Source of the DNA: a virus
Direction: 5' to 3' (one strand)
Length of the DNA: 64,000 bases
IMG/VR virus record: IMGVR_UViG_3300014913_000009
Span: 1-64,000 of that record
The notes under the pieces were generated by a model. The model did not search any database. It worked only from the letters and a program-made list of their open reading frames with translations, and was not told where the DNA came from. Below are positions 105 through 64,000 of the stretch, in pieces; position 1 is the first letter of the stretch, and each line of letters opens with the position of its first letter. A program made the translations under genes and the position numbers.

Positions 105-1847
105 TTAGCTTCTTAATGCAACAAGTAAATTTCTAACATATTCTGATGGTTTGTCATCTTTGTTAGCAATTAAATGCTTATGAAGCAATTCATCACTCCA
201 TCCTTTTGCCGTTGTAATTAAAGCCATTTCACTTGGACTTATTTTCGTTCCGGATAACTTTCCTTTGTTGGTTGGATTTCCGGTATTGTCAAAATGACAA
301 TGTTCTGTATTGCATTTTATCGCTTTACTGGAATATTTATCAAGTACCATCCAATATAATGGAGCGACATATAGATCAGTTGCCTTTCCGTTCCAATCAA
401 CTTCTTTTGTTTTTCCATAACCTTCGTTATAGAGGTTGTGAAAATGAGAAGTTGGTTCAAAATGATCATAATGCATATGAAAATCTTGAATATCTTCTGC
501 TTTTTCATTTGCCATCATTTCGACAAGCATACCTAAATTTCGTCGTTTTAAAACGGCTAATGGTGATGTCGCACAATGAACATTTTTTGGAAATTGGTCA
601 TCAGGAAGAACAAATACAACACCTTTGCCACCAGCACGATTAGTGATTTTATCGCCGGTCTCCAAGGTATGAATTGTTTCGTATAATAAATAAACGCGAT
701 TATATTTCTTGCCTTGAAATAAATATGTAGTTATTTTCAAGTCTCTAATAACACCTTTGTCTATTTTACATATATATTTAGATGAATGACATCCAAGTCG
801 TTTGATCTTTTCATGTTTGGCTAAAACTTTGCCCTTTTCGACAATGTCTCCTATTTTGACCATCATCTTAAAATTGGAAATAGATTTTGGAACGAGAAAC
901 GTTTGTTCGTTTAGTTGTTTGACCGTAAGCATTTCGGAAGCGGTTTTGCTAATTGCAATTTGCTCCTTGTACGTAAGAAAGGGACATAGAATAGTCTTTA
1001 AATGCTTGCCACTTAATGTGCCTGTTATTTGAAATTCATCTCGCCTTCTTTTATGATCGTATTCCGGATGATGGCACCATGGATCTTCGCCATCAACTAC
1101 TTCAACAACACCATTTATGTTAGAGGCGGTCATCCGTCGTCTACTATATTCGGGAAACAATAAATTCTCATGTAATATTTGCGAATATTGTTTACCTCTT
1201 TTTATAAACATTCCATTATTGTCAATTTCCACATCTTTGCATTGATACATAGAAATGCCGACATTTTTACCTTGACTTTGAGTCATATAATCAAGTATGT
1301 TGCTGGCATCAAATATCGGCATTTGACTATTCCGCCCAATATTAGGAGTGTCTATAAATATCTTATTTGGATATAATTTATCAACTGGTGTGACATATTG
1401 TATACTTTTGTGAGTTTTAATGATACGCATTAATTCATATTGAACTCGATCCGGTTCAATCAAATATCCAAACAAATAATGATCTTCTAATGTACGATTA
1501 ATACTATCTCTTATACAACATGCAAGAATATCACATTCATCTATCATATAATAATCTGCAATTGATTTATCCCATGGATTATACAAAGGAGTTGGTTTTG
1601 CAATATTACATATTCTCAATTTTCCGTTTTCCATATGCAAAATATGATTTTCGTCTGGAATCGGCAATGTAAATATAATAGAATAATTGACTTGTTTGTC
1701 ATTTTCTAAATTCATTGTAAATTGAGCATTAGTATCTGAAATTCTAATTTCCGGATTACACATGTAGAACTGTCTGACCGGCGATAACAGTACTTGGAGT
1801 TTTCTTAGTATCTTTTTGACGTTGTCTACTAATAAAGTTTTGTCCAT
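105..1847 (-). CDS. Phage RNA polymerase beta-like subunit (minimal, 580 aa)
   Basis: GDKITNRAGGKGV matches the beta GDKxxxRHGxKGV lysine motif. PLYWMVLDKY and GNPTNKGKLSGTKISPSEM resemble the beta C-terminal YxxKLxH and QPxxGKxxxGGQRFGEME regions. Confidence 0.9.
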   Translation of the reverse strand: MDKTLLVDNVKKILRKLQVLLSPVRQFYMCNPEIRISDTNAQFTMNLENDKQVNYSIIFTLPIPDENHILHMENGKLRICNIAKPTPLYNPWDKSIADYYMIDECDILACCIRDSINRTLEDHYLFGYLIEPDRVQYELMRIIKTHKSIQYVTPVDKLYPNKIFIDTPNIGRNSQMPIFDASNILDYMTQSQGKNVGISMYQCKDVEIDNNGMFIKRGKQYSQILHENLLFPEYSRRRMTASNINGVVEVVDGEDPWCHHPEYDHKRRRDEFQITGTLSGKHLKTILCPFLTYKEQIAISKTASEMLTVKQLNEQTFLVPKSISNFKMMVKIGDIVEKGKVLAKHEKIKRLGCHSSKYICKIDKGVIRDLKITTYLFQGKKYNRVYLLYETIHTLETGDKITNRAGGKGVVFVLPDDQFPKNVHCATSPLAVLKRRNLGMLVEMMANEKAEDIQDFHMHYDHFEPTSHFHNLYNEGYGKTKEVDWNGKATDLYVAPLYWMVLDKYSSKAIKCNTEHCHFDNTGNPTNKGKLSGTKISPSEMALITTAKGWSDELLHKHLIANKDDKPSEYVRNLLVALRS

Positions 1848-3297
1848 TTTTTATTCTTTCAGTAAGTGTGTTTAAAAGTGAATTAAATCCATTGTCTTCA
1901 ATCAATGCATTTAATGTATTAATTCTTTCTTCAAATCCTATTAACCCAGTATTTGAGACTGATGCATCATTAGAAAGAAAATGTAATGGACATCTATTTG
2001 TGATTATCTCACGAATAGTAATTTCATTACGTTCTATTTCTGTCATAAAATCAAAGAAGGGTTTGGATAAATTCTCATCAAGTATGCTTGATAGCAATGG
2101 CATTGTTGTTCTAACTGATAATTTGCTTTCGAGAAGATCAATAATAATTCCGAATCTTTTAGCCAATCCGTGCTTAGAATCAAACAATTCTTGCGATGCT
2201 CTTTCAATGATATGTGCAAATGATTTCATCAATGTAACATTTTGATCTGCGATCAACCATAGCATTTTGGCAAAATTGCCAATCATACCAATCCACAATT
2301 TACCAATAATTATGCCCGATGCTATTTCTAAATCACTTTCTCTTAGATCTTTAAGGTTACCATTAATCCATTTGTTTATATCATCTTTTTTGAGAGATTC
2401 GCAACAATCAAGAATATAATAAGTATCAGAATCTTCATTGAGAATATCTTCAGCGCATAATGAAAAATTATGTACTTCCATTATTCCTTCAATTTCTTCT
2501 TGATAATTATTAATATCTACCGGACCAAGACTTTCCCCAAGTTTCATCTCATGATCCCATTCGAGAGAAGTCCAATCTTCTTGAAGATTCATGCCTGGCA
2601 ATCCCATTAATCCAAATGCCCAATCTCCATCAAAATCGGCATTCATACCTTTCGTATAAGGTGGCGCCATACCAATTGTTGGCTTATCCCATTTTCGAAT
2701 GGTAAGTTTGCGAAAACTTTGATCGTGCAATACTGGCTGCCGAAAAACAATTGCCCATGCAAATTCTGTTGTTTCGCCACAATGTTTATAGAAATATTTT
2801 GCCATTTTTTTGTATATAGGTATTGGTAATGCGATTTCATCATATTCAATCCATGGACAATGACATATAACTCCTCGAAACGAACCTTCGGCACGATGAT
2901 TATATATATTGGTATTTAGCCGTCCTTTCTTGCCGGCAAGATCTAATGTAATGGCATTCCAATACAATCTTACATTAATCGACACTTGCTCATCATAAAA
3001 GTCAGGATCTTCTATATGATAGTCCTCCCATTCTCGAACCATATGAATAAGACGATCAAAATGAAATTGGATATTTGACAATACATATTTGTCATTTATG
3101 ATTTCTGGTTGTTGAGGGGGGATAAGAACATAATCTACTATTTTCCCGCTTGCATTTTCTATTTTGATTGGCAATTTAAATATGCCGCCATTTTTAATGC
3201 ATTCGTCAGTAAGAATATGATTTTCTATAGTCAAAACATCAATAGGATCTACCATCCTCTGGATATATTTCCCTATTGGTCTTAGTATTTTCTTCAT
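1756..3297 (-). CDS. Phage RNA polymerase beta'-like catalytic subunit (minimal, ~513 aa)
   Basis: Contains LAGKKGRLNTNIYNHR...FRGVI, RQPVLH and NADFDGD, with R-to-D spacing of 35 as in cellular beta'. Start set at ATG 3297 after AAAGGAG (track start is 3321). Confidence 0.93.
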   Translation of the reverse strand: MKKILRPIGKYIQRMVDPIDVLTIENHILTDECIKNGGIFKLPIKIENASGKIVDYVLIPPQQPEIINDKYVLSNIQFHFDRLIHMVREWEDYHIEDPDFYDEQVSINVRLYWNAITLDLAGKKGRLNTNIYNHRAEGSFRGVICHCPWIEYDEIALPIPIYKKMAKYFYKHCGETTEFAWAIVFRQPVLHDQSFRKLTIRKWDKPTIGMAPPYTKGMNADFDGDWAFGLMGLPGMNLQEDWTSLEWDHEMKLGESLGPVDINNYQEEIEGIMEVHNFSLCAEDILNEDSDTYYILDCCESLKKDDINKWINGNLKDLRESDLEIASGIIIGKLWIGMIGNFAKMLWLIADQNVTLMKSFAHIIERASQELFDSKHGLAKRFGIIIDLLESKLSVRTTMPLLSSILDENLSKPFFDFMTEIERNEITIREIITNRCPLHFLSNDASVSNTGLIGFEERINTLNALIEDNGFNSLLNTLTERIKNGQNFISRQRQKDTKKTPSTVIAGQTVLHV

Positions 3298-3781
3298 CTT
3301 CGCTCCTTTGCTTAAAGTCAAGTGCCATACGCAGTTTTTGCTCTCCTGTTTGCCCTGCGCTATACTTCATAGACAATCTTACGCTATGATTGTCTTTACC
3401 AATACTTTCATAGTTCCATAATCCAAGATGTCGAATATCCATATTATTAAAATAGTCTGGAGGTGATATTATTCCAGGAATATTCATATTAAATGAAACC
3501 GAACCATCAGATTTTCGCCTACTCGGAACACCATGTATAAATACTTCTCCCGGAGTAGATTTCGTAAGATGTTGTCTTTTTATTTGCAATTTTGCAATTT
3601 CGGCATCTATTTGCTTAATTTCATCTGTTGGTTCTTGTGGTTTATATACTGGAAAAGACTTCATTGATCTCAGTACATGATTCGCGACTTCCTGTATATA
3701 ATCGCAAGTGTCAGGTCTTGGTTGCAACCAAAGTCTTTCTGATTGCATTTCGTCCATTATTTTGAATGCTATATTTGACAT
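3239..3781 (-). CDS. Hypothetical protein overlapping the beta'-like start
   Basis: 180-aa ORF with SD (AAAGGA), in operon with the RNAP genes. Confidence 0.7.
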   Translation of the reverse strand: MSNIAFKIMDEMQSERLWLQPRPDTCDYIQEVANHVLRSMKSFPVYKPQEPTDEIKQIDAEIAKLQIKRQHLTKSTPGEVFIHGVPSRRKSDGSVSFNMNIPGIISPPDYFNNMDIRHLGLWNYESIGKDNHSVRLSMKYSAGQTGEQKLRMALDFKQRSEDEENTKTNREIYPEDGRSY

Positions 3782-5352: not shown

Positions 5353-5359
5353 AGGATGA

Positions 5360-9983: not shown

Positions 9984-10427
9984 TTACTTAAACTTTAACT
10001 GACGTTTGAGTTTTCGTAAATTTAGATTTACGATGCAAGAAATTCCCTGTTTGGAAACTCCTAACAAATCCCCTATTCGTTGATGGGAATATTCTTTGCA
10101 ACCAAATAAACCAAATTTCATAATTAATATTGCCCTATCACGCATTTTCATTTGCGCTAATAATTGGCGAAATATTTTATTAAGATGGTTTACATATTCA
10201 TTCATAAATACTTGGGATTTTAAGTGTTTATAATATAATTCGGCTGTTAGAATATCGACTTTCTCATGTCGACACTCTACACATATGTCTTGCTTTTCAT
10301 ATCCTTGCATATGATTACAATCCCATTTTTTTATTTTTATCGGCGTATAATGTACACGTCGGTAGAAATCTGTAGTATGGTTAGATTGCCCGCATTGCGG
10401 GCAATCTATAAACTTGAATTTTGACAT
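9984..10427 (-). CDS. Zn-finger plus sigma-70 region-4-like HTH protein
   Basis: N-terminal CPQC...CVEC; C-terminal RDRAILIMKFGL...YSHQRIGDLLGVSKQGIS...LRKLK resembles sigma region 4. Confidence 0.75.
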   Translation of the reverse strand: MSKFKFIDCPQCGQSNHTTDFYRRVHYTPIKIKKWDCNHMQGYEKQDICVECRHEKVDILTAELYYKHLKSQVFMNEYVNHLNKIFRQLLAQMKMRDRAILIMKFGLFGCKEYSHQRIGDLLGVSKQGISCIVNLNLRKLKRQLKFK

Positions 10428-18411: not shown

Positions 18412-18504
18412 AAATACAGACAAGAACAGTTCTTGTCTGTCATACTCTCTATTGGGGTGATTTCGTCCATACGGAGAAATCCCCACATGGTGTCTCTTTA
18501 CATC
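18412..18504. repeat. 93-bp perfect direct repeat, copy 2 (includes the 3' end of the single-chain RNAP gene)
   Basis: Identical to 17416-17508. Confidence 0.95.
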
Positions 18505-21500
18505 CCCACTTGGAGAGTATGTCGGCGACATTTCGTTCGCCAACATTATAATCCCGATTTCTATTCTCGGGATTATCCGTAACGAAGGAGCACCCTTTAT
18601 GGAGTGCATCCATCACTCTCTCCACGGGGAGTGGTGCCCTGTCTTTCCTCTTTCCGTTTACGGAAATAAACAGGACCTTATTCTCCTCCCCATTCCAGTT
18701 GGGGAGATTTTTGACATATCTGCCAGTACTCCCCTTGGAGTCTAGATTTGCCAAAAGGAGATCAGAACGATCCCATTTTGCCTTATCCTTTTCTCCATAT
18801 TTCCCCTGGAAGATTTCCTCCGCAGGGGATCCAAATTCAATCTCATTGGACATTGCATCCAATGAGATTTTGGGAGACCATTCAGGGTTACTCATACGAC
18901 CCCCAATGATCGCCCACACTCCCATCGGAACAATCTGTTCGACGAGAGACCATGGATGAACATTTTCACCCATAGCATAAGGCTTGCCGCTCTTATCGCG
19001 GTTTACCTTAAGAGTTCTATCTTCAAGATAGAACTTCTTAATCCTACCTTTCGTATTGCGCTCGGCGAGACTCATCGAGCGTAATATGCAGATTAGATAG
19101 AACTCAATTGAATGAGGCATATCAATCAAGTACTGTTTGATAGCCTCTATTTGCTGGCTATTATATTTAGAGTCACTTCTAAACATGCTAGCCCAAATAT
19201 CAAATAAGGACATTACCGACATTCCATAGCCGTCAATATCCTTCTCCGAATTCAAACGCCCCTGCATAAGGCGTTCACGTGCCTTACCTCGAACATTCTT
19301 GACGGCTGGGCGTTTAGACCACAACTCTATCAAGAGGCTCGAGACGGCATTATAAAGCCCCACATTATCCTCTGCTCCGAGGGTGGGACTTTTAATGACA
19401 GAGTACATCTGAGCGAGCCTTCCAAAATGAGGCTCCTGGATGTTGCTCCATTTATGACAATTCTCGACTACTTCCTTGTAGCCAAGAATTGTCGAGGTTT
19501 CACCAATCACCCGCTTCTCTGCGAGCGATTGGACTTCGGGGGACGCATCTTTCGATGGGCCCTTTATATATTTATAAAGGGAAGCATCTTCATGCATCCT
19601 CCAAATCGAGGGGCTTCTCTTGCCCCAATTGTCGGGAATTCTATTCCCGAAAGTTCGAGCCAGAATTTTGTCTGGCTCGACCTTGCAACCCAAGAACTGT
19701 TGACATTCGTCTCTAAACAGATCTGGGTTGATAATAACGCCATCCAACTTATGTTTCAATAAGTTGATAGCGACCTGAACCTTCATGGTCAATCCATAAA
19801 GGCTCGAGGCACATGATATGAGATCAAGTCCCATATCATGTGCCTTAGAAAATAGGGATGAGAGTATATTATCATATACTCCAATCCCATTAGTTTGGAC
19901 ATCCATGATCATGTCACGAACGCCCTTCCAACCCCAAGACTCACTCCGCTTGGTGGTCGGAGTGTCAAGCCCATCAGCATAAACATCTTTCGATGCTCTG
20001 ACGGACTTAACAATACTCAGATTCATTGCATGCAACTTAGACCAAGTCGCAGGCAACAAATCAACATGGGACACATTAACTGCATCTCCATCGAAATCTC
20101 CTCGACATAATATCGAGAAGATTTCCGGATTTACACTCATTGCGTTTGAGTGTGAACCCTTAACCTCCCTGGCTACGACGATAGATCCCGCCGTGACCAG
20201 TGGGGAACGTGTCATCATGACGTTCCCCTTGCGAGGTTTCATCCCACCAGGAATGGCAATAATCGTATTGCCACCCCGAAATGGGGGGATACATGGGTCG
20301 GGCATCACATAAGCATAAATGCCACGAACTCTTACATTCGCAGCCTTATGATGCAATGCCTTCCCCATTGCGCTCTCACCATATATGCCCGCGACATGAC
20401 ACTTCATGCCGGGAACATTCATAGCGAAAGCGCCTTTTGTATTGGCATCCACTCCGAATGCCTCATACATGAGCTGGTAATCAGCCCATTTGCCGCCAAT
20501 ATTGACGGCATGAACGCCCCGCGCCAATTTCTCGCACGTGACGTACGTTTTAGCCATCAAATCCTCGACCGAGGCATTATCCGGCATATTGCGGATGATT
20601 TGAGAACTCATTTTTACTGAGTTTCCAACATCCTTAATTTCAGAGATGCATGTAATTGCACCTCTTTTGGCACCACTACCAGTGGACTTTATATTCCACG
20701 GGCTAATAGTCCCAAACTCTGCCGACAATCCCAACCGGGACATCAGCAAAGAAATGAAAGTACTGGAACCACATAGCCCTTTGGCTATGTCAATTCCAGT
20801 TTCTCGAAGTTGTACGGCACGCAGCTGTACAACCTCATCTTTGGGCTCAACATTATATATGTTAAGCCCGTCGAAATATTTATCGCCAAATTCGACAAAC
20901 ACTTTTTCAGTGCTGTCGAACTGAGATAAATATTCTCCTATAGTAACAATGTCACTATAGGCTGGCATTGTCATCCAATCGGACGGCAATGCCTTCTTGA
21001 TGGAACGATTGGCACTATTGTACCATTTGTTCCATCTCCCTTCGGCAATTGTAGACACGATAATTTTTATCGCATCCTCCTTGCCGAAACGAGACAATGG
21101 AAACAAGTCCATTGTCTCGAATTTATAACTTGTCACCTCCCTGCAAGGTGACAACAGGAGCCGCGTATAAATCGCTTCATACACGGCCTTGAAACCCCCA
21201 GGTATGAGGGTTTTAAACTCACCCCGGTTTAGGAGGATGAATTGCTCACCCTTCATATCCGGGATTAATACCGCCACTTTACTGACGGTCCTGAATATGC
21301 TCCCAAGACGACTCTCGAGAGCATCGTCTACACGGGCCCTGACCCATGCAGACATCTTTGCAGGTTCGTCCTGGGGACACCTGTCCCACAGTTCGTCCCG
21401 GACAAGGGCTTTTACACCCTTTATGGAAATAGTAGCAAGTTCCTGACGCTTGCTACCAAGGATTGAAAGGATATGTTCTAAAACACGCCCTTTCACTTCA

Positions 21501-21583: not shown

Positions 21584-21695
21584 AATTTCTCCTTTCTTGA
21601 AAAAGATGGCTTATGAATAGCCAGAGGCCAACATAACCCCACACAATAGAAAGACGTTCTTTTCGCGTGGAAAAAAACATTCTTGCGTGGGGAAA

Positions 21696-21753
21696 AAACT
21701 GTTTCATCCCACCTACGGGAATCGTCAGGCACTAAAAGTAAGTGCTACAGTTT
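21696..21753 (-). ncRNA. Type III hammerhead ribozyme (HHR-3)
   Basis: AAACU-GUA cleavage triplet-GCACU(UACUUUU)AGUGC-CUGACGA-U-UCCC(GUAGGU)GGGA-U-GAAACAGUUU. Confidence 0.88.
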
Positions 21754-21818
21754 AGTTAGAGGGAAAGAAAAAATAGAGGAGAGTTTTTACACTCTCCTCT
21801 ATTTCCCATTCGCCTAAT

Positions 21819-22094
21819 TTATGATAAATCGTCTATGGATCCATCGGGGTTCACTCTGTGGCATTCTTCTCCACAGCTCAATATTAGGTGGAGGTTGGCT
21901 TTGTACAGCGATATACTCCAGTGGTAAGAATTATCGTTGGCATTAAGCCAACGATTACTGTAATCAATACCGTACCCGTCATCGCACCCCTCAAACATAT
22001 CTTGATCCGACAATTCAAAATTGTTTTTCAATGTATTCACCTGTGCTTCAGTTACTAATGAAAACAATTTTACTTCTTTCGTTGCATTTGTCAT
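21819..22094 (-). CDS. Hypothetical protein
   Basis: SD AGGAGG; followed by a hairpin at ~21770-21804. Confidence 0.7.
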   Translation of the reverse strand: MTNATKEVKLFSLVTEAQVNTLKNNFELSDQDMFEGCDDGYGIDYSNRWLNANDNSYHWSISLYKANLHLILSCGEECHRVNPDGSIDDLS

Positions 22095-22109
22095 GGATAT
22101 TTCCTCCTA

Positions 22110-24285: not shown

Positions 24286-24312
24286 ACTTTTTCTTTCTTT
24301 TTTTAAATATAT

Positions 24313-24341
24313 TTGACAAAAAAACATAAAGATATGATAAT
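24313..24341 (+). promoter_or_regulatory. Sigma70-type promoter at the strand switch
   Basis: TTGACA-17 bp-GATAAT. Confidence 0.7.
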
Positions 24342-55513: not shown

Positions 55514-56185
55514 ATGGAAATATCTGATCCGAGGATAGCCTTTGACCTCGACAGACGATGGGCATTGCCAGATACGACACAATGGACAAGGTCTCAATGG
55601 TCGCCACATATAATTGCGGCGATCATTGACGCTAAAGAGCAATATCCAACGGTCTTTATGGTGGAAGTCACTACCCCAAAAACATATAATCATAATGGAG
55701 ATGATTTTCTCTTTATTGTTCGCCCATTATCAAGAAGGGAATTCAATATTGTTGGCTCTGTAAATGCCGCGGGAATGTTCTTCGATAGAGAAGTATTATA
55801 TCGGCGATCATTATTATGGCCGGATGAAGATTTTCTCGACGACTTACCAGCAGGTGTTATAGAGACTGTATATGATACTGTCGAAATGATATCCGGCTGG
55901 GGAGATGTTAGGACACTCCAGGAGTTACAAGCAATTTCGCGCGAACAAATAGGTGTGGATAATGATGTGGGGTCGGTTGAGTCAAAACTCGACATGACGT
56001 TAGGAACAGTTTTCAAATCATTGTCGCCGCTTGACATCAAAGATATGGATGCCTATGAAAGTATGCATCTTATTTCTATGGTGGAAGGAATTCTTTCCGA
56101 ACAAGGATTTAAGTTTGACCTTTCTTTCGAAGACAGAAAAGCAGAAGAGGAGATAAGACGAAAAAGATTCGTTGTTAATAGATGA
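55514..56185 (+). CDS. Putative tail assembly chaperone paralog
   Basis: FIVRPLSRREF..LPAGV..ISGW. Confidence 0.55.
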   Translation: MEISDPRIAFDLDRRWALPDTTQWTRSQWSPHIIAAIIDAKEQYPTVFMVEVTTPKTYNHNGDDFLFIVRPLSRREFNIVGSVNAAGMFFDREVLYRRSLLWPDEDFLDDLPAGVIETVYDTVEMISGWGDVRTLQELQAISREQIGVDNDVGSVESKLDMTLGTVFKSLSPLDIKDMDAYESMHLISMVEGILSEQGFKFDLSFEDRKAEEEIRRKRFVVNR

Positions 56186-59100
56186 CCGATTATAGAGATG
56201 AATCAAGTACTTGGGAATCAACCCTAAAATGGGGAATGATTGGCATTGGTGCCGTTATGGGTGCTCGTGCTGCTTATCGTTATTCCCCTGCATTTCGTAA
56301 AGCCGCAATCGAAACTGCCGCGACTGCAGGTGATTTGTATCGATCGGCTGGAGTCCAAGCCAGAAAATATGCATCCAGATGGTCAACAAGCGCAAGTCCC
56401 GCAAAACAAGCGAGTGCGTCAGCCCTTGAATACTTTGCTGGCATAAAACAGGGAGGTATGCCGGCAGCATCAACAGTCCTCGAATCTGAAATGATTGAGT
56501 CCCTATCTCGTATTGATGTAATCCAATATAGCGACGATGCAATCGGCGATCTTAGATCTGCACTTGGCAGAAAATACGGGCAACCGATAGTAGGAGCGCC
56601 TAAAGGATATCGTCATATGACGGTACAAGACATCCTCACCAATGCACAAAAAGCCAAAAAGGGACATTATGCAATCGGCGAGGGCGGCAGGATGATGACG
56701 GCAAAAGGTTATGAAAACCTTAGGAGCGCCGTACAATCCGGTGCCGTTGACACTGAATGGATATTCAATCAAGACATATTTCTTCGCGAAATGGATAATG
56801 GAAAATTCCTAATAAGAGATGCTCGATTAGTTAATCCTGCAAAAACAGTATCTCAGGCACTTCAAAGATCGCAAAAATTCCGCATATTGGGTATGAGCCC
56901 AGCCGACCCGTTAGTTCCAAGTTCATGGACAACAAAAACTGCATCGGATTTAATGAGTCCAGATATTCCGATAAATCTTCGTGGCAGAGGGCCAACAAAA
57001 GTTGGTGGTGATTCTGTAATGCAAATTGGGGATAATGTATATAGCGTCCAAGGCAATCAAATGAAACGCGTAGGCAAAACCGACGCTCGTATATATACTA
57101 GCCCGAGATTGGTTAAGGAGCGTGCTGGACAAGCCGGTATGGGCGGTCAGTATTATGGACCAAAAGACACCCAAAGAGCAGTTACCGCAAAAGAAAGAAT
57201 TGCACAAGATCCCAATCGCTACAAAGGACCGATTGGGAAAGTCCGGAAATGGGCCGAATCCGGAAAAGGATACAGAGGATTTGGAATCGGCGAAGGATAT
57301 AATATTGGACCGCAATATAAACATGGGCAATCCATATTCGGTTTCGCCAGAGATTGGATGAATAAACTCCTCAATTACAAAACGGCAATCAATCTTAAAA
57401 CGGGAGCAAGGGGCGCAAAAGCATTTGCCGAAGAGAGCGTAATTGACAAGGTTAAGGGTTTCTTCAAAATCACTCCGGATAAAATGAAGAAAAATATGTA
57501 TTGGGCATCCGAAGAAGAACTCGGAAACCTCACCCTCAAACAAATGAAGGATGCCGCGAATCTTCATGCAAGCACCCACACAACCATAGAGTCCGTCTCA
57601 ACGCCGACAATGAGACTTCAGGGTAAATATCATACTGAAGTTAGGGATGTCGCTATGACGCCAGGTGAGGCTGTGGGGGCCTTTGGCAGAAAGTTCACAA
57701 CATCCGCAACAAGGGTGTTTGAATGGGCAACGGGAATGGGAGTTAAGCCCGGCACCGCAGGACAAACAATGCTTAGATTGGTGGCGAAGGGGGTCATCCC
57801 GACATGGCTATTGGTTGAAGCATTTAAGTATGGCGATTTTATGTCGGAAGAAATAACAGGCGTAAGTCCAATAAAAATGGGGGCTTATGGCTATGCGGGG
57901 GCGCAAACTGCAAAGCAGGGAATGCTTAATCTATCCGGATTTTCAACACTTTCAAATGCCGCGGATGAAGCTACAGGTGGTTTTTGGTCATCGACCGGAG
58001 GGACAATATTAAGAACTGCCGGTATTTTTGGAGCAAGTCTGGCAATCGGCGCTCATCCAGCCGCGAGTAAAGCGACAAAAAAATGGGCTCCAAGATTAGG
58101 GCTCGGATTAGCAGCGTTGCAACTTACGGGATCTCCCGGTAAATCGGCATTTGATCAATGGGATGAATACACCGGAAATAAAATGGTGCCGATAAGAAGG
58201 GGAAGGGGTTGGCTCACTGGACCACAACCTTACGAAGGTGGAGAAGTTCAATATTATAGGAAGCATGCAGTAGCACAAATATTGGATGATAGCCAATATG
58301 AAAAGTTTGGCGGGAAACAAGCATATTTTGAAGACTTATCTTTATTGCCAACACCTCATAATTGGATGGGCGCGAAAAGAATATTGGATCCTTATGCATG
58401 GGAAAAGCGCACATATTACGATCAGCCGTACCCACTTAACAAAGGAATGTTTTCTGAAGTTCCAATAGCAGGACCACTCCTTGATCTTACTGCTGGCCGC
58501 ATTCTTAAGCCAAGAGTAATGATGCATCAACAGGAAATCCAGAGGTGGCTCGATACGCCACAAATTCCGAGAGACCCCAAAATGACAATGATTGCAGATC
58601 AACTCAATATGCAATTACCCGTTACCGGAAGAGCCATTCCTAAATTCGGCGTAGCACAAGAAATCGGAACGGCAATAAAGGGTGCAACAGATTTTATTGG
58701 TATGCCCGGATTTATGCTGAATGCACTTAAAGAAAAGGCAACAGGAAGTTCCGAATGGTTCCATGATGGCCCAGTATGGCAAACGCCAGACTATCAGGTA
58801 TCTCAAGTAAGAAATTTCTTTGAGATGGAATGGGGCGGAATGCTTGGGGGATCAGAATTGTTCCGGCGTATGTGGTCAAAAGATTCTCACGAAGTATCAT
58901 TCGTTAATCCAATCCCCAATACAATGCCGGATTATATGCCCGGAAGTAGATCAATGTATGGAGATACTAATTTCATCAATTTCTCCGAAGGTGATCCATT
59001 TTCAAAAATAAGAGCTCCTGGTGCTCGCAATCTCCACATGGCACTCAATCCTCATACGAGTAATTTTGACAAATGGAGAATGCTCAAAGGGGTCGCCCCA

Positions 59101-60291
59101 TTCTCAAGAGCTGCGAAATCATTCGAAGCGGGAGTTATTGGAGCTGGAGAAAATCAAGTATTCAATGATGCACAGCAATCCCAATTCGAAGATGTCCAGA
59201 GTCGTATGAATATGTATGATCCTTCGACCGCATGGGCAGGGGAAGAAGGTGGAAGTTCCGGATTCCAATCATCATTACCTCATATTCCGTGGGTCAGCAC
59301 AAAATTTATGGGCGCTCCATCACCAGAGGAACATTATAGAAAAATGGTAAGATATGGTTCTGATTACTGGGACTGGAAAAATCCTTATGATCAAATGCTG
59401 GATCCATACCTATCATACATGAGCACCCAAAACCCGGTATCTGCAGCTGGTAGTGGTGCATTACTAGGATCAATCGCCGGATCAAGAGGCGCTGTTGTAG
59501 GAGCCGCTTATGGGGCGGTGTCTTCAATCTTTTCTGATGATAGTATTTCCAATAAAGAATCTCGCAGGGAATTTACAGAAGATTATTTTGACAAAATGCA
59601 ATATACCAAATTGCGCATGATGGAAGAACGCGCACTGGATATGAATAGAAGTGACCTTGTCAAAAAAATCCAAAATATGCAATCAAGCACAATGGTCGGA
59701 TTGGATTATAGTCTGGACTCGGAAGAATTTGCATTAGCAGCCAAAAAAGCATTGCCATCAAAAGACAGGGGTTATCTAATGGCGCTTGCAAATTCGGGTA
59801 TGGATACTTCGGAAATGCCAGAATATATGCATCCGATAATTGACAAGCTTCGTGGTCAGGGTAATCCTAAAATGAGTTATGCATCCAGAGATAGGATGGT
59901 CTCTGATTGGGTTGGAGAGAATGGCGGGATTCCCGGTGGAGAATGGGCTGGATGGGCTCCTGGCGTAGATATGCAAAAACTCAAAGCGGTTTCTGTTGCT
60001 GCTGATGGCGATAATATGCATGACTATGGATCTTATGAACCCGATGTAGAAATGGATGCCTATAGTTCTCCCTACTTAGATGCCATACAAAACTACGGGA
60101 CAATTAGCAATCCAGACTTGCAAAATATGAGTAGGATGGTGTATAATAATATGGCTCATCTCCGCAAGTTGGGGATTGACAATGGGGGGGTTATGATTAC
60201 CCCTTCATTTGGCAGTGGGCGGAGTCAATGGAATATTAATAGAGGGCGCGTAAATAGTGCCCGGCAATGGCGACAAAGAGGGATTTGGTAA
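56182..60291 (+). CDS. Tape-measure-like / large virion protein
   Basis: 1369 aa, Gly/Ala-rich with hydrophobic segments; follows the chaperones. Confidence 0.65.
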   Translation: MTDYRDESSTWESTLKWGMIGIGAVMGARAAYRYSPAFRKAAIETAATAGDLYRSAGVQARKYASRWSTSASPAKQASASALEYFAGIKQGGMPAASTVLESEMIESLSRIDVIQYSDDAIGDLRSALGRKYGQPIVGAPKGYRHMTVQDILTNAQKAKKGHYAIGEGGRMMTAKGYENLRSAVQSGAVDTEWIFNQDIFLREMDNGKFLIRDARLVNPAKTVSQALQRSQKFRILGMSPADPLVPSSWTTKTASDLMSPDIPINLRGRGPTKVGGDSVMQIGDNVYSVQGNQMKRVGKTDARIYTSPRLVKERAGQAGMGGQYYGPKDTQRAVTAKERIAQDPNRYKGPIGKVRKWAESGKGYRGFGIGEGYNIGPQYKHGQSIFGFARDWMNKLLNYKTAINLKTGARGAKAFAEESVIDKVKGFFKITPDKMKKNMYWASEEELGNLTLKQMKDAANLHASTHTTIESVSTPTMRLQGKYHTEVRDVAMTPGEAVGAFGRKFTTSATRVFEWATGMGVKPGTAGQTMLRLVAKGVIPTWLLVEAFKYGDFMSEEITGVSPIKMGAYGYAGAQTAKQGMLNLSGFSTLSNAADEATGGFWSSTGGTILRTAGIFGASLAIGAHPAASKATKKWAPRLGLGLAALQLTGSPGKSAFDQWDEYTGNKMVPIRRGRGWLTGPQPYEGGEVQYYRKHAVAQILDDSQYEKFGGKQAYFEDLSLLPTPHNWMGAKRILDPYAWEKRTYYDQPYPLNKGMFSEVPIAGPLLDLTAGRILKPRVMMHQQEIQRWLDTPQIPRDPKMTMIADQLNMQLPVTGRAIPKFGVAQEIGTAIKGATDFIGMPGFMLNALKEKATGSSEWFHDGPVWQTPDYQVSQVRNFFEMEWGGMLGGSELFRRMWSKDSHEVSFVNPIPNTMPDYMPGSRSMYGDTNFINFSEGDPFSKIRAPGARNLHMALNPHTSNFDKWRMLKGVAPFSRAAKSFEAGVIGAGENQVFNDAQQSQFEDVQSRMNMYDPSTAWAGEEGGSSGFQSSLPHIPWVSTKFMGAPSPEEHYRKMVRYGSDYWDWKNPYDQMLDPYLSYMSTQNPVSAAGSGALLGSIAGSRGAVVGAAYGAVSSIFSDDSISNKESRREFTEDYFDKMQYTKLRMMEERALDMNRSDLVKKIQNMQSSTMVGLDYSLDSEEFALAAKKALPSKDRGYLMALANSGMDTSEMPEYMHPIIDKLRGQGNPKMSYASRDRMVSDWVGENGGIPGGEWAGWAPGVDMQKLKAVSVAADGDNMHDYGSYEPDVEMDAYSSPYLDAIQNYGTISNPDLQNMSRMVYNNMAHLRKLGIDNGGVMITPSFGSGRSQWNINRGRVNSARQWRQRGIW

Positions 60292-63200
60292 ATGCCCAGA
60301 AGAAAGAAAAAAGGAATTGTCAAACCATTGTTGGGAGCAGCTGCATTAGGCGGTGCTGGATACGGGTTTTATTATAGTCTTAAAAATCCAATCAAAAGTG
60401 CTGCGGGAGAAGTAGCCGCAACAAAACCTAGTCAAGCATATTCGGGAAAAGGTCCGATAGATAGAACCCCTGAATACAAAGGAAAGCCAATAATGATTGG
60501 TGAAAATCCAATCCCGCCAGGCGGACTTAATTTACGAACCGAATCAGAATTTGCAAAATTGTCCGCGGAACATCTACAAAAAGTCGACGATGCAACACTA
60601 CGAATGCTAAAGCAAAATACAGGACAATCCAATAGTTATGGTGGCATCTTTTCTGCTGCAGAACAACAAGGATTGGGAGTAGATATTACCAGGACTGGCG
60701 GAACAATCAACGTAGAAATACAAGGACTAAAAGGTCCAACACAAGTAGTGCAACTTCCAGCCCAACCAAGAGGAGGCGGAAAAGCAACCTTCGGTCTGCG
60801 CAGATATAATGCACCAACCTTTATTGTTGGCGAAAGAGGTGCGGAAAGAATAGGGCATGTTCAGGATGCAATTGAAGAAAGTATTTTTAATGCAATAAAA
60901 GACAAGAAAAATCTTACTCCAACCCAATTCGCCGATGTGATACAAAACGCAAGACAGGAAGTATTTGATATATTGCCGGCCAGCACCAATACGGATTATC
61001 GCGGATTTGGGCAAACAATCGAAAGTACCAGAATGTCCAATCGTATTGTTGGAACGAGACTTCAAAGGGAATTAAGTACACTTGACAAAATCCACGGAAC
61101 CGGAGTGCAGGCAGAAGCGGCTAGACGCGGATTCAGAGGAATTAAAACACGAGCAGATTTATATGGTGCGGTTATCTCTGATTATTGGCAGGGAATGTCT
61201 GATGACGTATTAAAGAATGTGGGAATATCGACCAATAGAACTTCGCCTGAATTTTACAGACAAGTAATGTCGATGTATGACAATACTAAAGGTGGAAATA
61301 TGATTAAGGGGATTGGACATAGATCGGTCATGGGTAAGTCCGCAATTGTTGGAACCCCACTTGACAAAGTATTACATGAAGGTGGACGTATTTTAAGAAG
61401 TGGAAATCTTGTCAATCCAGAAAGTGGACAAATTGCAAAAACATGGAATGGAATTAAAGATGGAATGATATCCAACTTCCCTGCTGGACCAGAGGGAATA
61501 CGAGCATTAAATACCGGAGCCAATAATAGGCTGATTGGAACAACCAGCCGTGCAGCATTTATCGTTGATCCGAAAGCAGCGGCAGTACTTGGTTTTGATC
61601 CGTTCGAATCCGGCGGATCATTTAGAGTTTCCAAAATGCAAAAAGACGTTCTTACACAAGGTATTCATACAAGGTATAATCTTGATGTTCGACCAGGATC
61701 TCCAGGTGCTCCAAAAGGAATTGATCTCGCCATAAAAAAACAAAAGATTGTCAGGTCGGGAAACAGAGGGAAATATGACAAGTGGATTGGCGGGCTTTCG
61801 CAGAAGGAACAACGTATTGTTGGCGGATTCGATGATCCTTTGATGACATTTGGTAAAGGACAACTCGTTGGATCGGGGTCAATTGAATTCATCGAAGATG
61901 GGGCGACAAGATCAGTCTCAAGCCGCAATATAAGGACAAGAGGTACTTATGATGTTACAAACATAGGATACAATGCCATTGATGATACTCTTTCAATACA
62001 AGGGCATATGCGTGCCTCAACGGCGGCATTAACGATAGGAGGAAGTCATGCAAGTATGAATCCGCATACATTTTCAGCAAGCAAGCTAGGCGATGCTATG
62101 AGCGGAGGGAATGTACATATACTTGGATCGTGGACAGATCTTAAAAAATGGGATCAAATGGGAGTGCTTTTTGATGACCTTGCAGTACAGATCGAACAAG
62201 GGGGAGGAAATGCCGTGAAAGCATTTTCAGACCTCAAAACAATGAATCTAAAAACATACAACCAGACTGTTAAAAAATTTGGGCTTGAAAGCAAAATAGA
62301 TTATATATCCAAAAAAGGAGAGATAAGACTCAAGACGACAACAAGAGATGCGAAAGAAATCGCATTAGCTGCTGGTTATACGGAGGCTCAAGCGGCTGGA
62401 ATAACAGGGCAAATAGAAATGGCAAATCTTGCATCTAAGGTTACGATTGGAGGAGAGGCATCATTCTATTCTTCGAAGGGAGTGTGGTCAAATGCATATC
62501 AAGAAGGTACATCATTGGCACATAGGCGGCTTGGAAAACTCAATGAAATTCAGAGTGTATTACAAAGAGGTGATGTCGAAGAAGCCAAGCGAATGATTAG
62601 AAATATTGGAGGAGATAAAGGAAAAGATATATTCGCATCCGAAAGAAAAGGATATGGCGAAGCATTTGGCAAACTTGGACAAAAAAATATAGACGACAGA
62701 TCAATACTGCTCAATAGAACAAGAGGACTTATTCAAAGTGCAGAAAAAGATATTAATGTTGGACTTAGCAAAATGAATACTATTTCAAATCTTAAAATGG
62801 GATTTGATGAATCTATCATGCTTGGACTTACAGCAAACAAATCATACAAGACATTAAGTAAAATCATACAAGGAGAAATGGTCAAACAATCAGGTTCTGC
62901 TGGCAGAGAATTAAGAGCATACATGGGGCAGATGGGAATGGGGACTCAAGGCAATTGGGGTATCGCCAATGTCGGAGCGCTTCAAACAAAAAGCGGGCCA
63001 TTGACGAGGGTGAAAATTGGAAGTAGCGAACTCAAAGAACTTGGCAGTATTGCAAGAAATTTAGAAAAACAATTATCCGATGGCAGTCCAATCACACAAG
63101 AAATGTTCGACAGTGTAAATAAAAAATTTAATGATGCTCTTGGAAGGGTTGGTGTTGCTCCAGGAGAATCAATGGGTGGATTTCTACTTGAAACAAATGG

Positions 63201-64000
63201 GATGGAATTACCAGTTGCCATTGGAAGTAATCCGGTAAAAGTCGGAGGACAACAAGGGCAAATATATATACCAGGCATTAATGAGGCGGTTCCTCAAAAC
63301 CAAATGTTCCAACCCGGTGGATATTCAAAAAACAAAATACTTTTAAGAAAACTCAAACTTTATCAGCACCTTGGCATGTATCCAAATGAAGCAATAGTTG
63401 GGAAAAGAGCAATGCCGGGGCTTGCCGAAAATTGGAGATTGGGAACTGGCAAAGCAATGGGGGATTTATATGATGAGTTGAATGTAATGTCCACTTCAAA
63501 AAAGGGTGGGGGCAGAAGAATAATGGGGCAAGAATGGAGAGCAGAAGCATCAATTTATTCTCAGGCAATTGGACAAGGACAAATTGATATACAGGATAGA
63601 ATGATGGCATTAAGCGGATCAGAGAGACAGCGAATACAGGGACTAAAGGGGACGCAGCAAATAGAAGCACTTGACGACGCATTAGCAAATACAATATTCA
63701 TATCCAAAGAGCAGGCAAAACTTATGCCCGATGATATTTATCAAGCCATCAAATCCGGCAAAGGATACGGAATCACAGGACGATGGCCAATAGTATCTCC
63801 TGGTGGCATTGGAGTTACGCGTTTTGCTATCGCTGAAAGTTTGCATGGAAATGTCGCAGGAGTTAGTTCTGCTGGACTAATGAGATTTGCCGGTGATGTA
63901 GATATGGATAAAGTCGCAGCATTTGTTGGTCGATTTGAAGGAAATGCAGAAGCACAAAAAGCATTAGAAGAAGCATATAGTTATACACTCAAACAGAATC
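60292..64000 (+). CDS. Large virion protein with RNA-polymerase-like catalytic barrel (partial; candidate virion RNAP)
   Basis: Translated by hand: open for 1236 codons from ATG 60292 to the window end (absent from the ORF track). SKKGGGRRIMG...IFISKEQA...GRWP...AGDVDMDK. Confidence 0.75.
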   Translation, partial: MPRRKKKGIVKPLLGAAALGGAGYGFYYSLKNPIKSAAGEVAATKPSQAYSGKGPIDRTPEYKGKPIMIGENPIPPGGLNLRTESEFAKLSAEHLQKVDDATLRMLKQNTGQSNSYGGIFSAAEQQGLGVDITRTGGTINVEIQGLKGPTQVVQLPAQPRGGGKATFGLRRYNAPTFIVGERGAERIGHVQDAIEESIFNAIKDKKNLTPTQFADVIQNARQEVFDILPASTNTDYRGFGQTIESTRMSNRIVGTRLQRELSTLDKIHGTGVQAEAARRGFRGIKTRADLYGAVISDYWQGMSDDVLKNVGISTNRTSPEFYRQVMSMYDNTKGGNMIKGIGHRSVMGKSAIVGTPLDKVLHEGGRILRSGNLVNPESGQIAKTWNGIKDGMISNFPAGPEGIRALNTGANNRLIGTTSRAAFIVDPKAAAVLGFDPFESGGSFRVSKMQKDVLTQGIHTRYNLDVRPGSPGAPKGIDLAIKKQKIVRSGNRGKYDKWIGGLSQKEQRIVGGFDDPLMTFGKGQLVGSGSIEFIEDGATRSVSSRNIRTRGTYDVTNIGYNAIDDTLSIQGHMRASTAALTIGGSHASMNPHTFSASKLGDAMSGGNVHILGSWTDLKKWDQMGVLFDDLAVQIEQGGGNAVKAFSDLKTMNLKTYNQTVKKFGLESKIDYISKKGEIRLKTTTRDAKEIALAAGYTEAQAAGITGQIEMANLASKVTIGGEASFYSSKGVWSNAYQEGTSLAHRRLGKLNEIQSVLQRGDVEEAKRMIRNIGGDKGKDIFASERKGYGEAFGKLGQKNIDDRSILLNRTRGLIQSAEKDINVGLSKMNTISNLKMGFDESIMLGLTANKSYKTLSKIIQGEMVKQSGSAGRELRAYMGQMGMGTQGNWGIANVGALQTKSGPLTRVKIGSSELKELGSIARNLEKQLSDGSPITQEMFDSVNKKFNDALGRVGVAPGESMGGFLLETNGMELPVAIGSNPVKVGGQQGQIYIPGINEAVPQNQMFQPGGYSKNKILLRKLKLYQHLGMYPNEAIVGKRAMPGLAENWRLGTGKAMGDLYDELNVMSTSKKGGGRRIMGQEWRAEASIYSQAIGQGQIDIQDRMMALSGSERQRIQGLKGTQQIEALDDALANTIFISKEQAKLMPDDIYQAIKSGKGYGITGRWPIVSPGGIGVTRFAIAESLHGNVAGVSSAGLMRFAGDVDMDKVAAFVGRFEGNAEAQKALEEAYSYTLKQN

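What the first reader, a model, noticed from the sequence alone, without database searches (positions are those of the whole stretch)
105..64000. One phage with three distinct two-barrel RNA polymerase systems
Seen: three separate R-x-P...DxDxD active-site signatures with matching spacing. They are beta'-like RQP-35-DFDGD (1756-3297, paired with beta-like 105-1847), single-chain RSP-37-DFDGD (18449-21583), and virion-module RWP-38-DVDMD (60292 onward). Established: phiKZ/AR9-type phages use two multisubunit RNAPs, SPbeta uses single-chain YonO, crAss-like phages inject a single-chain virion RNAP, and Thermus phage P23-45 has a virion and a non-virion enzyme. Inference: a three-tier cascade (injected enzyme, then YonO-like, then minimal beta/beta') mixing these architectures. 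I do not know this combination from a characterised phage.
Basis: partly seen in the sequence, partly recalled or inferred. Interest (0 to 1): 0.92.

Follow-up and report, generated by a model that had tools for sequence, protein, structure and literature searches.

The report
Phage fragment with two, perhaps three, RNA polymerases
A 90-kb piece of a very unusual sediment phage encodes a clear cellular-type beta/beta' RNA polymerase pair and a second, well-supported single-chain polymerase of a very rare family. The proposed third, tail-borne polymerase rests only on a conserved short motif.

Summary
The pattern R-x-P, 30-42 residues, D-x-D-x-D occurs exactly three times in all six-frame ORFs of the 89,970-bp contig, against 0.17 expected by chance.

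(1) ORFs 1756-3321(-) and 105-1847(-) are true beta' and beta homologues. Both pass the Pfam cut-offs and align collinearly with Rpb1 and bacterial beta.

(2) ORF 18449-21583(-), 1044 aa, belongs to a family of four proteins among 1.8 billion representatives. R-x-P...GDFDGD is invariant in it. A profile of known polymerase catalytic barrels (double-psi beta-barrels, DPBB) finds it, and it aligns to a jumbo-phage beta-beta' fusion at E 4.6e-5. Language-model neighbours are phage RdRP/YonO-like proteins. It is probably a second, single-chain polymerase.

(3) ORF 60292-65361(+), 1689 aa, lies between two other giant proteins in the contractile-tail module. Its one relative keeps RWP and D-x-D-x-D, in the most conserved soluble block. 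No profile test rises above background, so it remains only a candidate.

Both AlphaFold runs failed (pLDDT about 34), so no fold was tested. The contig is a fragment (CheckV completeness 47%). A twofold depth step brackets the block that holds ORF 2. The three-tier cascade is untested.

The parts
1756..3321 (-). beta'-like subunit (P0002, 521 aa from TTG; ATG at 3297). It carries GKKGRLNTN...R..S.R.VI, RQPVLH and NADFDGD.
   Evidence: Pfam RNA_pol_Rpb1_2 at 30.0 bits (cut-off 25.3) and phrog_2987. Collinear phmmer alignment to Rpb1 over two motif blocks. The genome search PF00623 is over the cut-off.
105..1847 (-). beta-like subunit (P0001, 580 aa) with TGDKITNRAGGKGVV and SPLAVLKRRNLG, the beta double-psi beta-barrel (DPBB) with both lysines.
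   Evidence: Pfam RNA_pol_Rpb2_6 at 29.6 bits (cut-off 23.4) and phrog_3295 at E 1.3e-11. Aligned to bacterial beta GDKMAGRHGNKGVV...NPLGVPSRMNVG.
18449..21583 (-). Single-chain RNA polymerase candidate (P0003, 1044 aa). It has an upstream Q253-x-R255...K268-G269...K299 block, RSP459-37-GDFDGD(495-500), and an unrelated C-terminal domain of about 120 aa (924-1044).
   Evidence: Three full-length relatives in 1.84e9 representatives; R-x-P, GDFDGD, Q253, R255, K268, G269 and K299 are invariant at 22-26% identity. A profile of 6 known barrels scores HMMER E 0.0024 and hhalign 32.7 (E 1.9e-4), against 18.7 or less for 43 control proteins. hhalign to the beta-beta' fusion on L003 gives E 4.6e-5. 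Weak hits to AR9 beta' chains 7s00_d and 7s01_d. ESM Atlas neighbours are phage PF05183 clusters.
60292..64000 (+). Tail-module giant protein (P0005, 1689 aa; the ORF ends at contig position 65361, beyond the window). It has RWP1164-38-DVDMD1202, KKGGGRR at 1070, ATQTMTG at 1298, and N- and C-terminal hydrophobic segments. It is an unproven candidate virion polymerase.
   Evidence: Motif. The homologue in contig G001 keeps RWP and DTDLD; the 45-aa window 1163-1207 is the second most conserved in the C-terminal half. The best local hhalign match to the P0003 family falls on this window, P 0.038. Not found by HMMER profiles; hhalign 18.5-20.2 is within background.
56182..60291 (+). 1369-aa protein directly upstream of P0005 (P0006); possible tape measure; function unassigned.
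   Evidence: Its stop codon abuts the P0005 start. It lies between the sheath gene (50881-52335) and the baseplate genes, and the gene order is conserved in G001. No family hit.
9984..10427 (-). Small sigma region-4-like protein (147 aa); possible transcription factor in the same leftward arm.
   Evidence: phrog_351 'RNA polymerase sigma factor' at E 1.6e-6. Pfam Sigma70_r4 at 23.1 bits, just under the cut-off of 24.1.
21584..24500 (.). Nearly ORF-free divergent region upstream of P0003, holding the best sigma-70-like promoter matches on both strands.
   Evidence: TTGACA-16-CATGAT at 22725-22698(-), ATGACA-16-TAAAAT at 22094-22067(-), TTGACA-17-GATAAT at 24313-24341(+). These are consensus matches only.

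Best explanation
The window is the larger part of an 89,970-bp fragment of a deep-branching contractile-tailed phage from sediment. It has only one known relative.

The fragment encodes at least two different enzymes of the two-barrel RNA polymerase superfamily.

(a) A beta'-like and a beta-like protein of the cellular/multisubunit lineage. They carry the Asp triad and the two lysines, and would form an active centre at the interface of their barrels. They probably work with further subunits that are not on this fragment.

(b) A roughly 1000-aa single chain (P0003) with a beta'-type barrel (RSP...GDFDGD) and an upstream Q-x-R...KG block. That block resembles the beta-type barrel of YonO, P23-45 gp64 and eukaryotic-type RdRPs. 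P0003 is probably an independent non-virion polymerase. It is the first large gene of the leftward arm, downstream of sigma-70-like promoters, and sits beside two ankyrin-repeat genes.

(c) The 1689-aa tail-module protein may be a third, ejected polymerase, analogous to the tape-measure-fused enzyme of P23-45 or the crAss-like gp66. This is not shown.

What is shown: homology of (a), and motif- and profile-level homology of the beta'-type barrel of (b). What is inferred: the second barrel of (b), catalytic activity, any role for (c), and any temporal order.
For: (a) The Pfam cut-offs are passed, and the proteins align collinearly with Rpb1 and bacterial beta.

(b) The family alignment has invariant R-x-P, GDFDGD, Q253, R255, K268-G269 and K299. 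A profile of six known barrels that excludes this family singles it out from 2664 frames at E 0.0024. By hhalign it scores 32.7, against 18.7 or less for the controls. hhalign to a Pfam-confirmed beta-beta' fusion gives E 4.6e-5 and aligns the R..Y.Y...IP, R.P and GDFDGD blocks in order. One relative, P0148, touches phrog_2987, the beta' phrog that P0002 also matches, at E 0.022. All ten best-named ESM Atlas neighbours are phage PF05183 RdRP clusters, with score 0.89 and 183 of 256 features shared. The best hhalign hit of the N-terminal block in gp64 is AQVRMF...KGVIV, with identical Q-x-R-11-KG spacing, but P is only 0.2.

(c) The R-to-Asp spacing of 38 equals that of P23-45 gp96, and D-x-D-x-D-K matches the gp66 motif DFDIDK. 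The Asp triad is kept while the x positions change in the only relative. The motif lies in the most conserved soluble block.

The motif count is 3 against 0.17 expected.
Against: No fold evidence exists. AlphaFold2 gave pLDDT 33.8 for P0003 with 4 sequences and 35.0 for the P0005 homologue with 2 sequences.

P0003 has no hit to Pfam RdRP or to YonO by hhalign beyond motif level, and its second barrel rests on a short invariant block.

P0005 is invisible to HMMER profiles of 6 or 10 known barrels even at E below 1000. Its Asp triad lacks the aromatic and Gly/Ile residues seen in every reference.

The contig is incomplete. In two runs the k-mer depth is 13-17 outside the block 11.7-23.5 kb that holds P0003, and 33-41 inside it. 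Linkage of P0003 to the other two is therefore not proven.
Confidence: 0.72

Rival explanations
1. The full three-polymerase reading. The 1689-aa tail protein is a genuine two-barrel polymerase carried in the tail or ejected with the DNA. It transcribes the first genes, then the single-chain enzyme and the beta/beta' enzyme act in turn.
For: RWP-38-DVDMD has the same spacing as the validated tape-measure-fused gp96. The triad and RWP are conserved in G001 at 38% overall identity, inside the top-ranked soluble conserved block. The best local profile match to the P0003 family is exactly this window. The gene sits between a giant upstream protein and a nuclease-bearing hub-like giant protein in the tail module. 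There is a precedent for a tail-borne polymerase (PMC10770324).
Against: No profile score rises above the background of other phage proteins. There is no PDB, Pfam, PHROG or Atlas signal. No beta-type barrel could be located. Sigma-70-like promoters and a sigma-like ORF mean an injected enzyme is not required.
Confidence: 0.3
2. The tail protein is an ordinary tape-measure or ejection protein. Its R-x-P...D-x-D-x-D is a chance or metal-binding motif unrelated to transcription, so the phage has two polymerase systems only.
For: One chance hit per genome is not rare (0.17 expected). The Asp triad is non-canonical (DVDMD/DTDLD). The terminal hydrophobic segments and very large size are typical of tail-lumen proteins. 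All database searches were blank.
Against: The whole motif is conserved in the best-conserved soluble block. The register matches in both hhalign comparisons. Upstream KKGG.R...R.[ED]AS.YSQ.I and downstream ATQTMTG blocks lie about 95 residues either side.
Confidence: 0.45
3. The contig joins DNA of more than one element, so the polymerases do not belong to one phage.
For: There is a twofold depth step with contig breaks at 11.7 and 23.5 kb around the GC-richer block that holds P0003 and the ankyrin genes.
Against: Both blocks occur at 99% identity or more in runs from two studies, with the same direction of depth difference. Several repeat families occur on both sides of the boundary. Gene strand and GC skew are continuous across it. 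A collapsed long terminal repeat, a block shared between strains, or GC bias would explain the step equally well. Synteny with G001 supports the right arm.
Confidence: 0.12

Closest known systems
phiKZ/AR9-type split multisubunit phage RNA polymerases (non-virion and virion sets)
   Same: Separate small beta'-type (NADFDGD) and beta-type (GDK...GKG) proteins of about 500-600 aa in a contractile-tailed phage. PHROG families 2987 and 3295 match. The P0003-family profile gives weak hits to AR9 beta' chains 7s00_d and 7s01_d.
   Different: Only one beta' and one beta piece are found on the fragment, with no beta-N or beta'-C modules. There is no tblastn match to any sequenced phage for beta'. A sigma region-4-like ORF is present, whereas group 1 jumbo phages are reported to have none (PMC7824862).
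YonO of SPbeta and phage/eukaryotic RdRP-like single-chain two-barrel polymerases (Pfam PF05183)
   Same: A single chain of about 840-1060 aa. RSP...D-x-DGD, with R-x-P-x-x-x-P-G-S in the relatives. An upstream x-R...KGL block about 230-265 residues before the triad. Atlas neighbours are PF05183 phage clusters.
   Different: There is no HMM hit to PF05183. hhalign to YonO finds nothing in register. The spacing is 37 against 43. The best significant relative is a fusion of the multisubunit lineage. An extra C-terminal domain is shared with polyvalent proteins.
P23-45 gp96 (tape-measure-fused virion polymerase) and gp64 (non-virion)
   Same: One phage with a tail-module candidate and a non-virion single-chain enzyme. 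The R-x-P to Asp spacing is 38 in both gp96 and P0005. gp64 shares the Q-x-R-11-KG spacing with P0003.
   Different: The host phage here is a contractile-tailed virus, and the candidate is a separate ORF rather than a fusion. No significant sequence or profile similarity was found. The triad is DVDMD, not DFDGD. This phage additionally has beta/beta'.
crAss-like virion polymerase (phi14:2 gp66)
   Same: A giant virion-module protein next to other giant proteins. The triad is followed by Lys and lacks Gly at position 4 (DFDIDK against DVDMDK).
   Different: This is a different virion type, a myovirus with sheath and baseplate. There is no detectable homology.

Membership tests
Multisubunit-type RNA polymerase beta' (P0002) | Barrel with the NADFDGD Asp triad preceded by R-x-P-x-L-H, plus the upstream GK.GR.R.N...R..S.R.VI block | tested here: met
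   Pfam Rpb1_2 at 30.0 bits, over the 25.3 cut-off; both blocks align to Rpb1.
Multisubunit-type RNA polymerase beta (P0001) | Barrel with GDK...G.KG (two lysines) and the NP...SR.N.G block | tested here: met
   Pfam Rpb2_6 at 29.6 bits, over the 23.4 cut-off; aligned to bacterial beta.
phiKZ/AR9-type split polymerase (complete enzyme) | Presence of beta-N and beta'-C polypeptides (four or five subunits) and a second paralogous set | tested here: inconclusive
   PF04998, PF04565 and PF04560 give nothing on the contig. However, the contig is a fragment with about 47% completeness, and these phage modules are often too divergent for Pfam.
Single-chain two-barrel polymerase, YonO/RdRP-like (P0003) | beta'-type barrel with an invariant D-x-D-G-D triad after R-x-P | tested here: met
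   Invariant in 4 sequences. Known-barrel profile E 0.0024 and hhalign E 1.9e-4. hhalign to the L003 fusion E 4.6e-5.
Single-chain two-barrel polymerase, YonO/RdRP-like (P0003) | A second, beta-type barrel in the same chain supplying two basic residues | tested here: inconclusive
   Q253, R255, K268-G269 and K299 are invariant. Top hhalign hits fall on gp64 AQVRMF..KGVIV (P 0.2) and on P0001 GGKGVV (P 0.22). There is no significant score and no fold.
Single-chain two-barrel polymerase, YonO/RdRP-like (P0003) | Double-psi beta-barrel folds by structure | tested here: inconclusive
   The AlphaFold2 model has pLDDT 33.8 and is unusable.
Pfam PF05183 RdRP (P0003) | Score over the family cut-off | tested here: not met
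   No hit at E of 1 or less, nor at E of 10 or less on the genome. The only support is language-model neighbours.
Virion two-barrel polymerase (P0005) | beta'-type barrel recognisable by profile or fold | tested here: not met
   HMMER profiles of 6 and 10 barrels find nothing. hhalign scores of 18.5-20.2 are within the control range. The model has pLDDT 35.
Virion two-barrel polymerase (P0005) | Conserved R-x-P and Asp triad across relatives | tested here: met
   RWP plus DVDMD in this contig and RWP plus DTDLD in G001; this is the second most conserved 45-aa window. Only two sequences exist.
Virion two-barrel polymerase (P0005) | Presence in virions and rifampicin-resistant early transcription | not testable with these tools
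   Uncultured metagenomic phage; no RNA run was listed.

The most novel reading that the evidence does not exclude
A contractile-tailed phage carries three evolutionarily distinct two-barrel RNA polymerases. These are a tail-lumen enzyme with a non-canonical DVDMD centre that is ejected with the DNA, a YonO/RdRP-like single chain encoded in an early (possibly terminally repeated) block, and a reduced beta/beta' enzyme. Together they would form a host-independent cascade that mixes architectures so far seen only in separate phage groups.
Probability: 0.27. Interest if true: 0.88.

Novelty: new variant of a known kind. Interest (0 to 1): 0.62.

Why it matters
Phage two-barrel polymerases are the most divergent relatives of the cellular transcription enzyme. 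They inform how that enzyme arose and how far it can be reduced.

In the comparative survey of jumbo phages read here (PMC7824862), multisubunit-type and YonO-like enzymes fall in different phage groups. A contig with both would be a new combination.

The P0003 family has four members in 1.8 billion representative proteins. It would add a new, very rare branch.

If the tail protein were also active, it would be the second case of a polymerase travelling through a tail, and the first in a contractile-tailed phage. It would also have an unprecedented Asp-triad context.

All of this rests on sequence motifs from an uncultured, incomplete genome.

Tried and rejected
- **Structure prediction.** P0003 with a 4-sequence alignment and P0156 with a 2-sequence alignment gave pLDDT 33.8 and 35.0. 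No fold search was run because the models are meaningless.
- **Word-index homologue searches.** Searches for P0003, for P0005 residues 900-1500 and for the P0003 family alignment returned only the query's own record.
- **tblastn against sequenced phages.** P0003 matched only through its C-terminal domain, to Vibrio phage Kuja. P0004 and P0002 had no match. P0001 matched three Vibrio phages weakly.
- **PDB sequence and profile searches for P0003 and P0005.** Nothing significant was found.
- **Pfam and PHROGs on P0003, P0005 and their relatives.** There were no relevant families except a weak phrog_2987 hit for P0148.
- **ESM Atlas for P0005.** No usable hit.
- **Scans for more relatives.** I scanned IMG/VR with P0005, the alignment A2, P0009, P0001 and the sheath alignment. 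I also scanned the metagenome and genome collections, and ran two degenerate DNA patterns for RWPxVSPGxIG. The only result was contig G001. A co-occurrence survey is therefore impossible.
- **G001 and the other polymerases.** G001 carries no P0001, P0002 or P0003 homologue, but it is a 45.6-kb fragment of the structural arm, so this says nothing.
The contexts of P0009 (99-kb contig), P0109 and P0148 could not be read.
- **hhalign of both families against single sequences.** The references were YonO, gp64, gp96 and gp66. No alignment in register was found.
- **Split in G001.** I rejected the idea that the two-ORF form of the P0005 homologue in G001 marks a natural beta/beta' boundary. Similarity continues across the stop in another frame, which points to a frameshift.
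- **RNA evidence.** No RNA holder was listed among public runs.
- **Earlier findings on related DNA.** The 'relatives' look-up returned nothing.
Full report
**What the DNA is.** The window is bases 1-64000 of a single 89,970-bp virus record with no end repeats. CheckV estimates its completeness at 47%. Genes run leftward from about 24 kb to base 105 and rightward from about 24.5 kb to the end.

The right arm is a contractile-tail morphogenesis module:
- large terminase, 37008-38900
- portal, 41718-43727
- major head protein, 46201-47601
- sheath, 50881-52335
- three giant ORFs of 1369, 1689 and 2779 aa (56182-73700)
- baseplate wedge, 74919-76085

The phage is therefore a myovirus, not a crAss-like podovirus. 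Public runs that hold it come from sediment metagenomes. Across IMG/VR, the metagenome collection and the genome collection, the only relative found is a 45.6-kb fragment, IMGVR_UViG_3300035698_009244 (G001). It shares the structural arm at 46-72% protein identity.

**Check of the observation.** The regex R.P.{30,42}D.D.D hits only these three sites in all six-frame ORFs of the contig. Residue shuffles give 0.17 hits on average and 3 or more in 0.2% of trials. The third ORF continues beyond the window to 65361 and is 1689 aa long.

**System 1, the beta'/beta pair.**
- P0002 (1756-3321, -) passes the Pfam Rpb1_2 cut-off. It aligns with Rpb1 over both the GK.GR...R..S.R.VI block and RQPxLH...NADFDGD.
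- P0001 (105-1847, -) passes the Rpb2_6 cut-off. It aligns with bacterial beta over GDK...G.KGVV and NP...SR.N.G.
- These are true homologues of the two catalytic subunits. By PHROG they match families annotated as phage RNA polymerase beta subunit.
- They are very divergent. tblastn of beta' finds no sequenced phage.
- Pfam models for the beta N-terminal and beta' C-terminal modules find nothing on the contig.
- In phiKZ/AR9-type phages, beta' is split in two and beta in two or three polypeptides (PMC7824862). This contig is a fragment, and the beta gene ends 105 nt from its edge.
- I therefore cannot accept 'minimal heterodimer'. Missing partners off the contig are at least as likely.

**System 2, the 1044-aa protein P0003 (18449-21583, -).**
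- An exhaustive HMMER search of 1.84 billion representatives found only three full-length relatives, at E 1.8e-17 to 7.6e-4. Every other hit matched only an unrelated C-terminal domain of about 120 aa.
- At 22-26% identity, the four proteins keep several residues invariant: R459, P461, G495-D500 (GDFDGD), and an upstream set of Q253, R255, K268-G269, K299, Q328 and R331.
- I built a profile from the catalytic-barrel windows of six known enzymes: P0002, a Pfam-confirmed beta-beta' fusion from a 225-kb phage contig, YonO, P23-45 gp64 and gp96, and phi14:2 gp66.
- The profile did not use this family. It picks P0003 out of 2664 frames at E 0.0024.
- By hhalign the same profile scores 32.7 (E 1.9e-4), while 43 other large proteins of the two phages score 18.7 or less.
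- The family profile aligns to the beta-beta' fusion at E 4.6e-5. The R..Y.Y...IP, R.P and GDFDGD blocks fall in order.
- Weaker echoes are AR9 beta' chains in the PDB at E 0.7 and phrog_2987 for relative P0148 at E 0.022.
- Protein-language-model neighbours are phage clusters carrying Pfam RdRP (PF05183), with score 0.89 and 183 of 256 features shared. By the tool's own calibration this is only a lead.
- The relatives read R-x-P-x-x-x-P-G-S. From my own knowledge this recalls the RdRP signature.
- The Q-x-R-11-KG block has the same spacing as AQVRMF...KGVIV of gp64, which is also its top, non-significant hhalign hit (P 0.2).
- PF05183 itself does not match, and YonO does not align in register.

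I conclude that the beta'-type barrel is established at the profile level, that the second barrel is likely but unproven, and that the clade is unresolved between RdRP/YonO-like and a fused derivative of the multisubunit lineage.

**System 3, the 1689-aa protein P0005 (60292-65361, +).** It starts at the stop codon of the 1369-aa ORF. It precedes a 2779-aa protein with a staphylococcal-nuclease domain and a hub-like C-terminus.

Evidence for a polymerase:
- The R-to-Asp spacing of 38 equals that of the experimentally validated tape-measure-fused gp96. The D-x-D-x-D-K context resembles DFDIDK of gp66.
- The G001 homologue keeps RWP and all three Asp residues (DTDLD) while the intervening residues change.
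- At 38% overall identity, window 1163-1207 is the second most conserved 45-aa window of the C-terminal half, after the C-terminal hydrophobic segment. The third is ATQTMTG at 1298.
- The best local hhalign match between this family and the P0003 family is exactly the two motif windows, in register, with P 0.038.

Evidence against:
- HMMER profiles of 6 or 10 barrels do not report it at all.
- hhalign scores of 18.5 and 20.2 lie inside the control distribution.
- There is no hit in Pfam, PHROGs, the PDB, the Atlas or sequenced phages.
- No beta-type barrel could be located.
- The apparent two-gene form in G001 is a frameshift, not a domain boundary.

I put the chance that P0005 is a polymerase at about 0.3.

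**Fold test.** Both AlphaFold2 jobs failed for lack of homologues, with pLDDT 33.8 and 35.0. No fold search was meaningful.

**Is it one phage?**
- GC content varies from 28% to 54% along the left arm.
- In the probable source run, Logan contigs over 4.5-11.7 kb have depth 13-15. Those over 11.7-23.5 kb have depth 33-41, and the next contig has 16.9. Contig breaks fall at both boundaries.
- A run from another study shows the same direction of difference.
- The high-depth block holds P0003 and two ankyrin-repeat genes.
- Against a mis-join, both blocks occur at 99% identity or more in two studies. Strand and skew are continuous. Repeat families occur on both sides of the boundary.
- A collapsed long direct terminal repeat, which gives twofold depth, fits the numbers well. 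It would place P0003 in DNA that is present twice per genome.

**How it may work.** The 2-kb region upstream of P0003 is almost ORF-free and carries the best sigma-70-like promoter matches. Over 5-25 kb there are 78 promoter-like sites against 60.5 ± 8.7 expected, and 64 terminator-like hairpins against 12.9 ± 3.1 expected. A 147-aa sigma region-4-like ORF lies at 9984-10427.

One cascade needs no injected enzyme. Host polymerase reads P0003 and the early block, and the phage enzymes then take over. Neither was tested.

**Comparison and novelty.**
- Two multisubunit enzymes occur in phiKZ/AR9-type phages (PMC7598289 abstract; PMC7824862).
- YonO is the SPbeta single-chain enzyme (PMC5467207 abstract).
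- gp66 of phi14:2 is a virion enzyme (record annotation; PMC10770324).
- P23-45 has a virion and a non-virion enzyme.

In the survey of 224 jumbo phages, multisubunit-type and YonO-like enzymes are reported in different groups. I found no paper describing both in one phage, though my search was limited.

I rate this a new variant of a known kind. The parts belong to the known two-barrel superfamily, while the combination and the P0003 family appear new. The scan's other first-stage notes on this genome cover the same ORFs, and none had been followed up.

Noticed in passing
window 11700-23500: This 11.8-kb block has GC of 42-54% and about 2.4-fold higher k-mer depth than both flanks in two independent runs. 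Contig breaks fall at 11.67/11.73 kb and 23.48/23.51 kb. It may be a collapsed long direct terminal repeat, a block shared between strains, or GC bias.
   Followed up: partly
window 16076-17119 (-) and 17509-18312 (-): Two ankyrin-repeat proteins (Pfam Ank_2 at E 1.7e-19 and 1.1e-47) lie directly downstream of the single-chain polymerase gene. This is unusual for a phage and suggests host manipulation.
   Followed up: no
window 18449-18810 (-), P0003 residues 924-1044: This C-terminal domain of about 120 aa is shared with more than 140 proteins, from 130-aa stand-alone forms to polyvalent proteins of 2000-5000 aa. It also occurs next to DUF4326/NADAR and 2OG-Fe(II) oxygenase domains and in Vibrio phage Kuja. 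It is in no Pfam family.
   Followed up: partly
window 9984-10427 (-): A 147-aa ORF with a sigma-70 region-4-like helix-turn-helix (phrog_351 at E 1.6e-6; Pfam Sigma70_r4 at 23.1 bits against a cut-off of 24.1). Group 1 jumbo phages with multisubunit polymerases are reported to lack sigma factors.
   Followed up: partly
window 5001-25000: Terminator-like hairpins are strongly enriched (64 against 12.9 ± 3.1 in shuffles), mostly on the coding (-) strand between genes. Several belong to repeat families: D2/D4 at 14828, 15148, 17417 and 18413, and D5/D7 at 7800-8864. The last overlap the hammerhead/pseudoknot modules that other first-stage notes describe.
   Followed up: partly
window 6499-6528, 11618-11647, 12261-12290, 15551-15580: A 30-nt repeat (on the - strand, TTTTGTACAATGGTGGGATTTATGATATAT) that reads like TTGTAC-N17-TATAT. 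It may be a reiterated early promoter.
   Followed up: no
contig 65361-73700 (L001:9361-17697): A 2779-aa protein after the candidate polymerase carries a staphylococcal nuclease domain (Pfam SNase at 28.8 bits). Its C-terminus matches phrog_20474. A virion-borne nuclease is likely.
   Followed up: no
L009:7080-7200 (G001): The P0005 homologue is interrupted by a stop at ...AAAGGGAATGATTTAG. Similarity continues in another frame (LGWQELSMLGL against GFDESIMLGL). This is a sequencing frameshift or a programmed shift, not a clean two-gene split.
   Followed up: partly
L003:8213-10975 (IMGVR_UViG_3300028804_000001, 225 kb): A 920-aa single ORF that fuses a beta-type barrel (Pfam Rpb2_6 at 38.6 bits) to a beta'-type barrel (RHP-35-DFDGD). 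It is the closest significant relative of the P0003 catalytic region.
   Followed up: partly
window 11027-11500 (-), 9204-9659 (-): An RNase H (Pfam E 5.6e-27) and a phosphatase (phrog_335) are present. However, no DNA polymerase, helicase or primase was recognised anywhere on the 90 kb, which is consistent with an incomplete genome.
   Followed up: no
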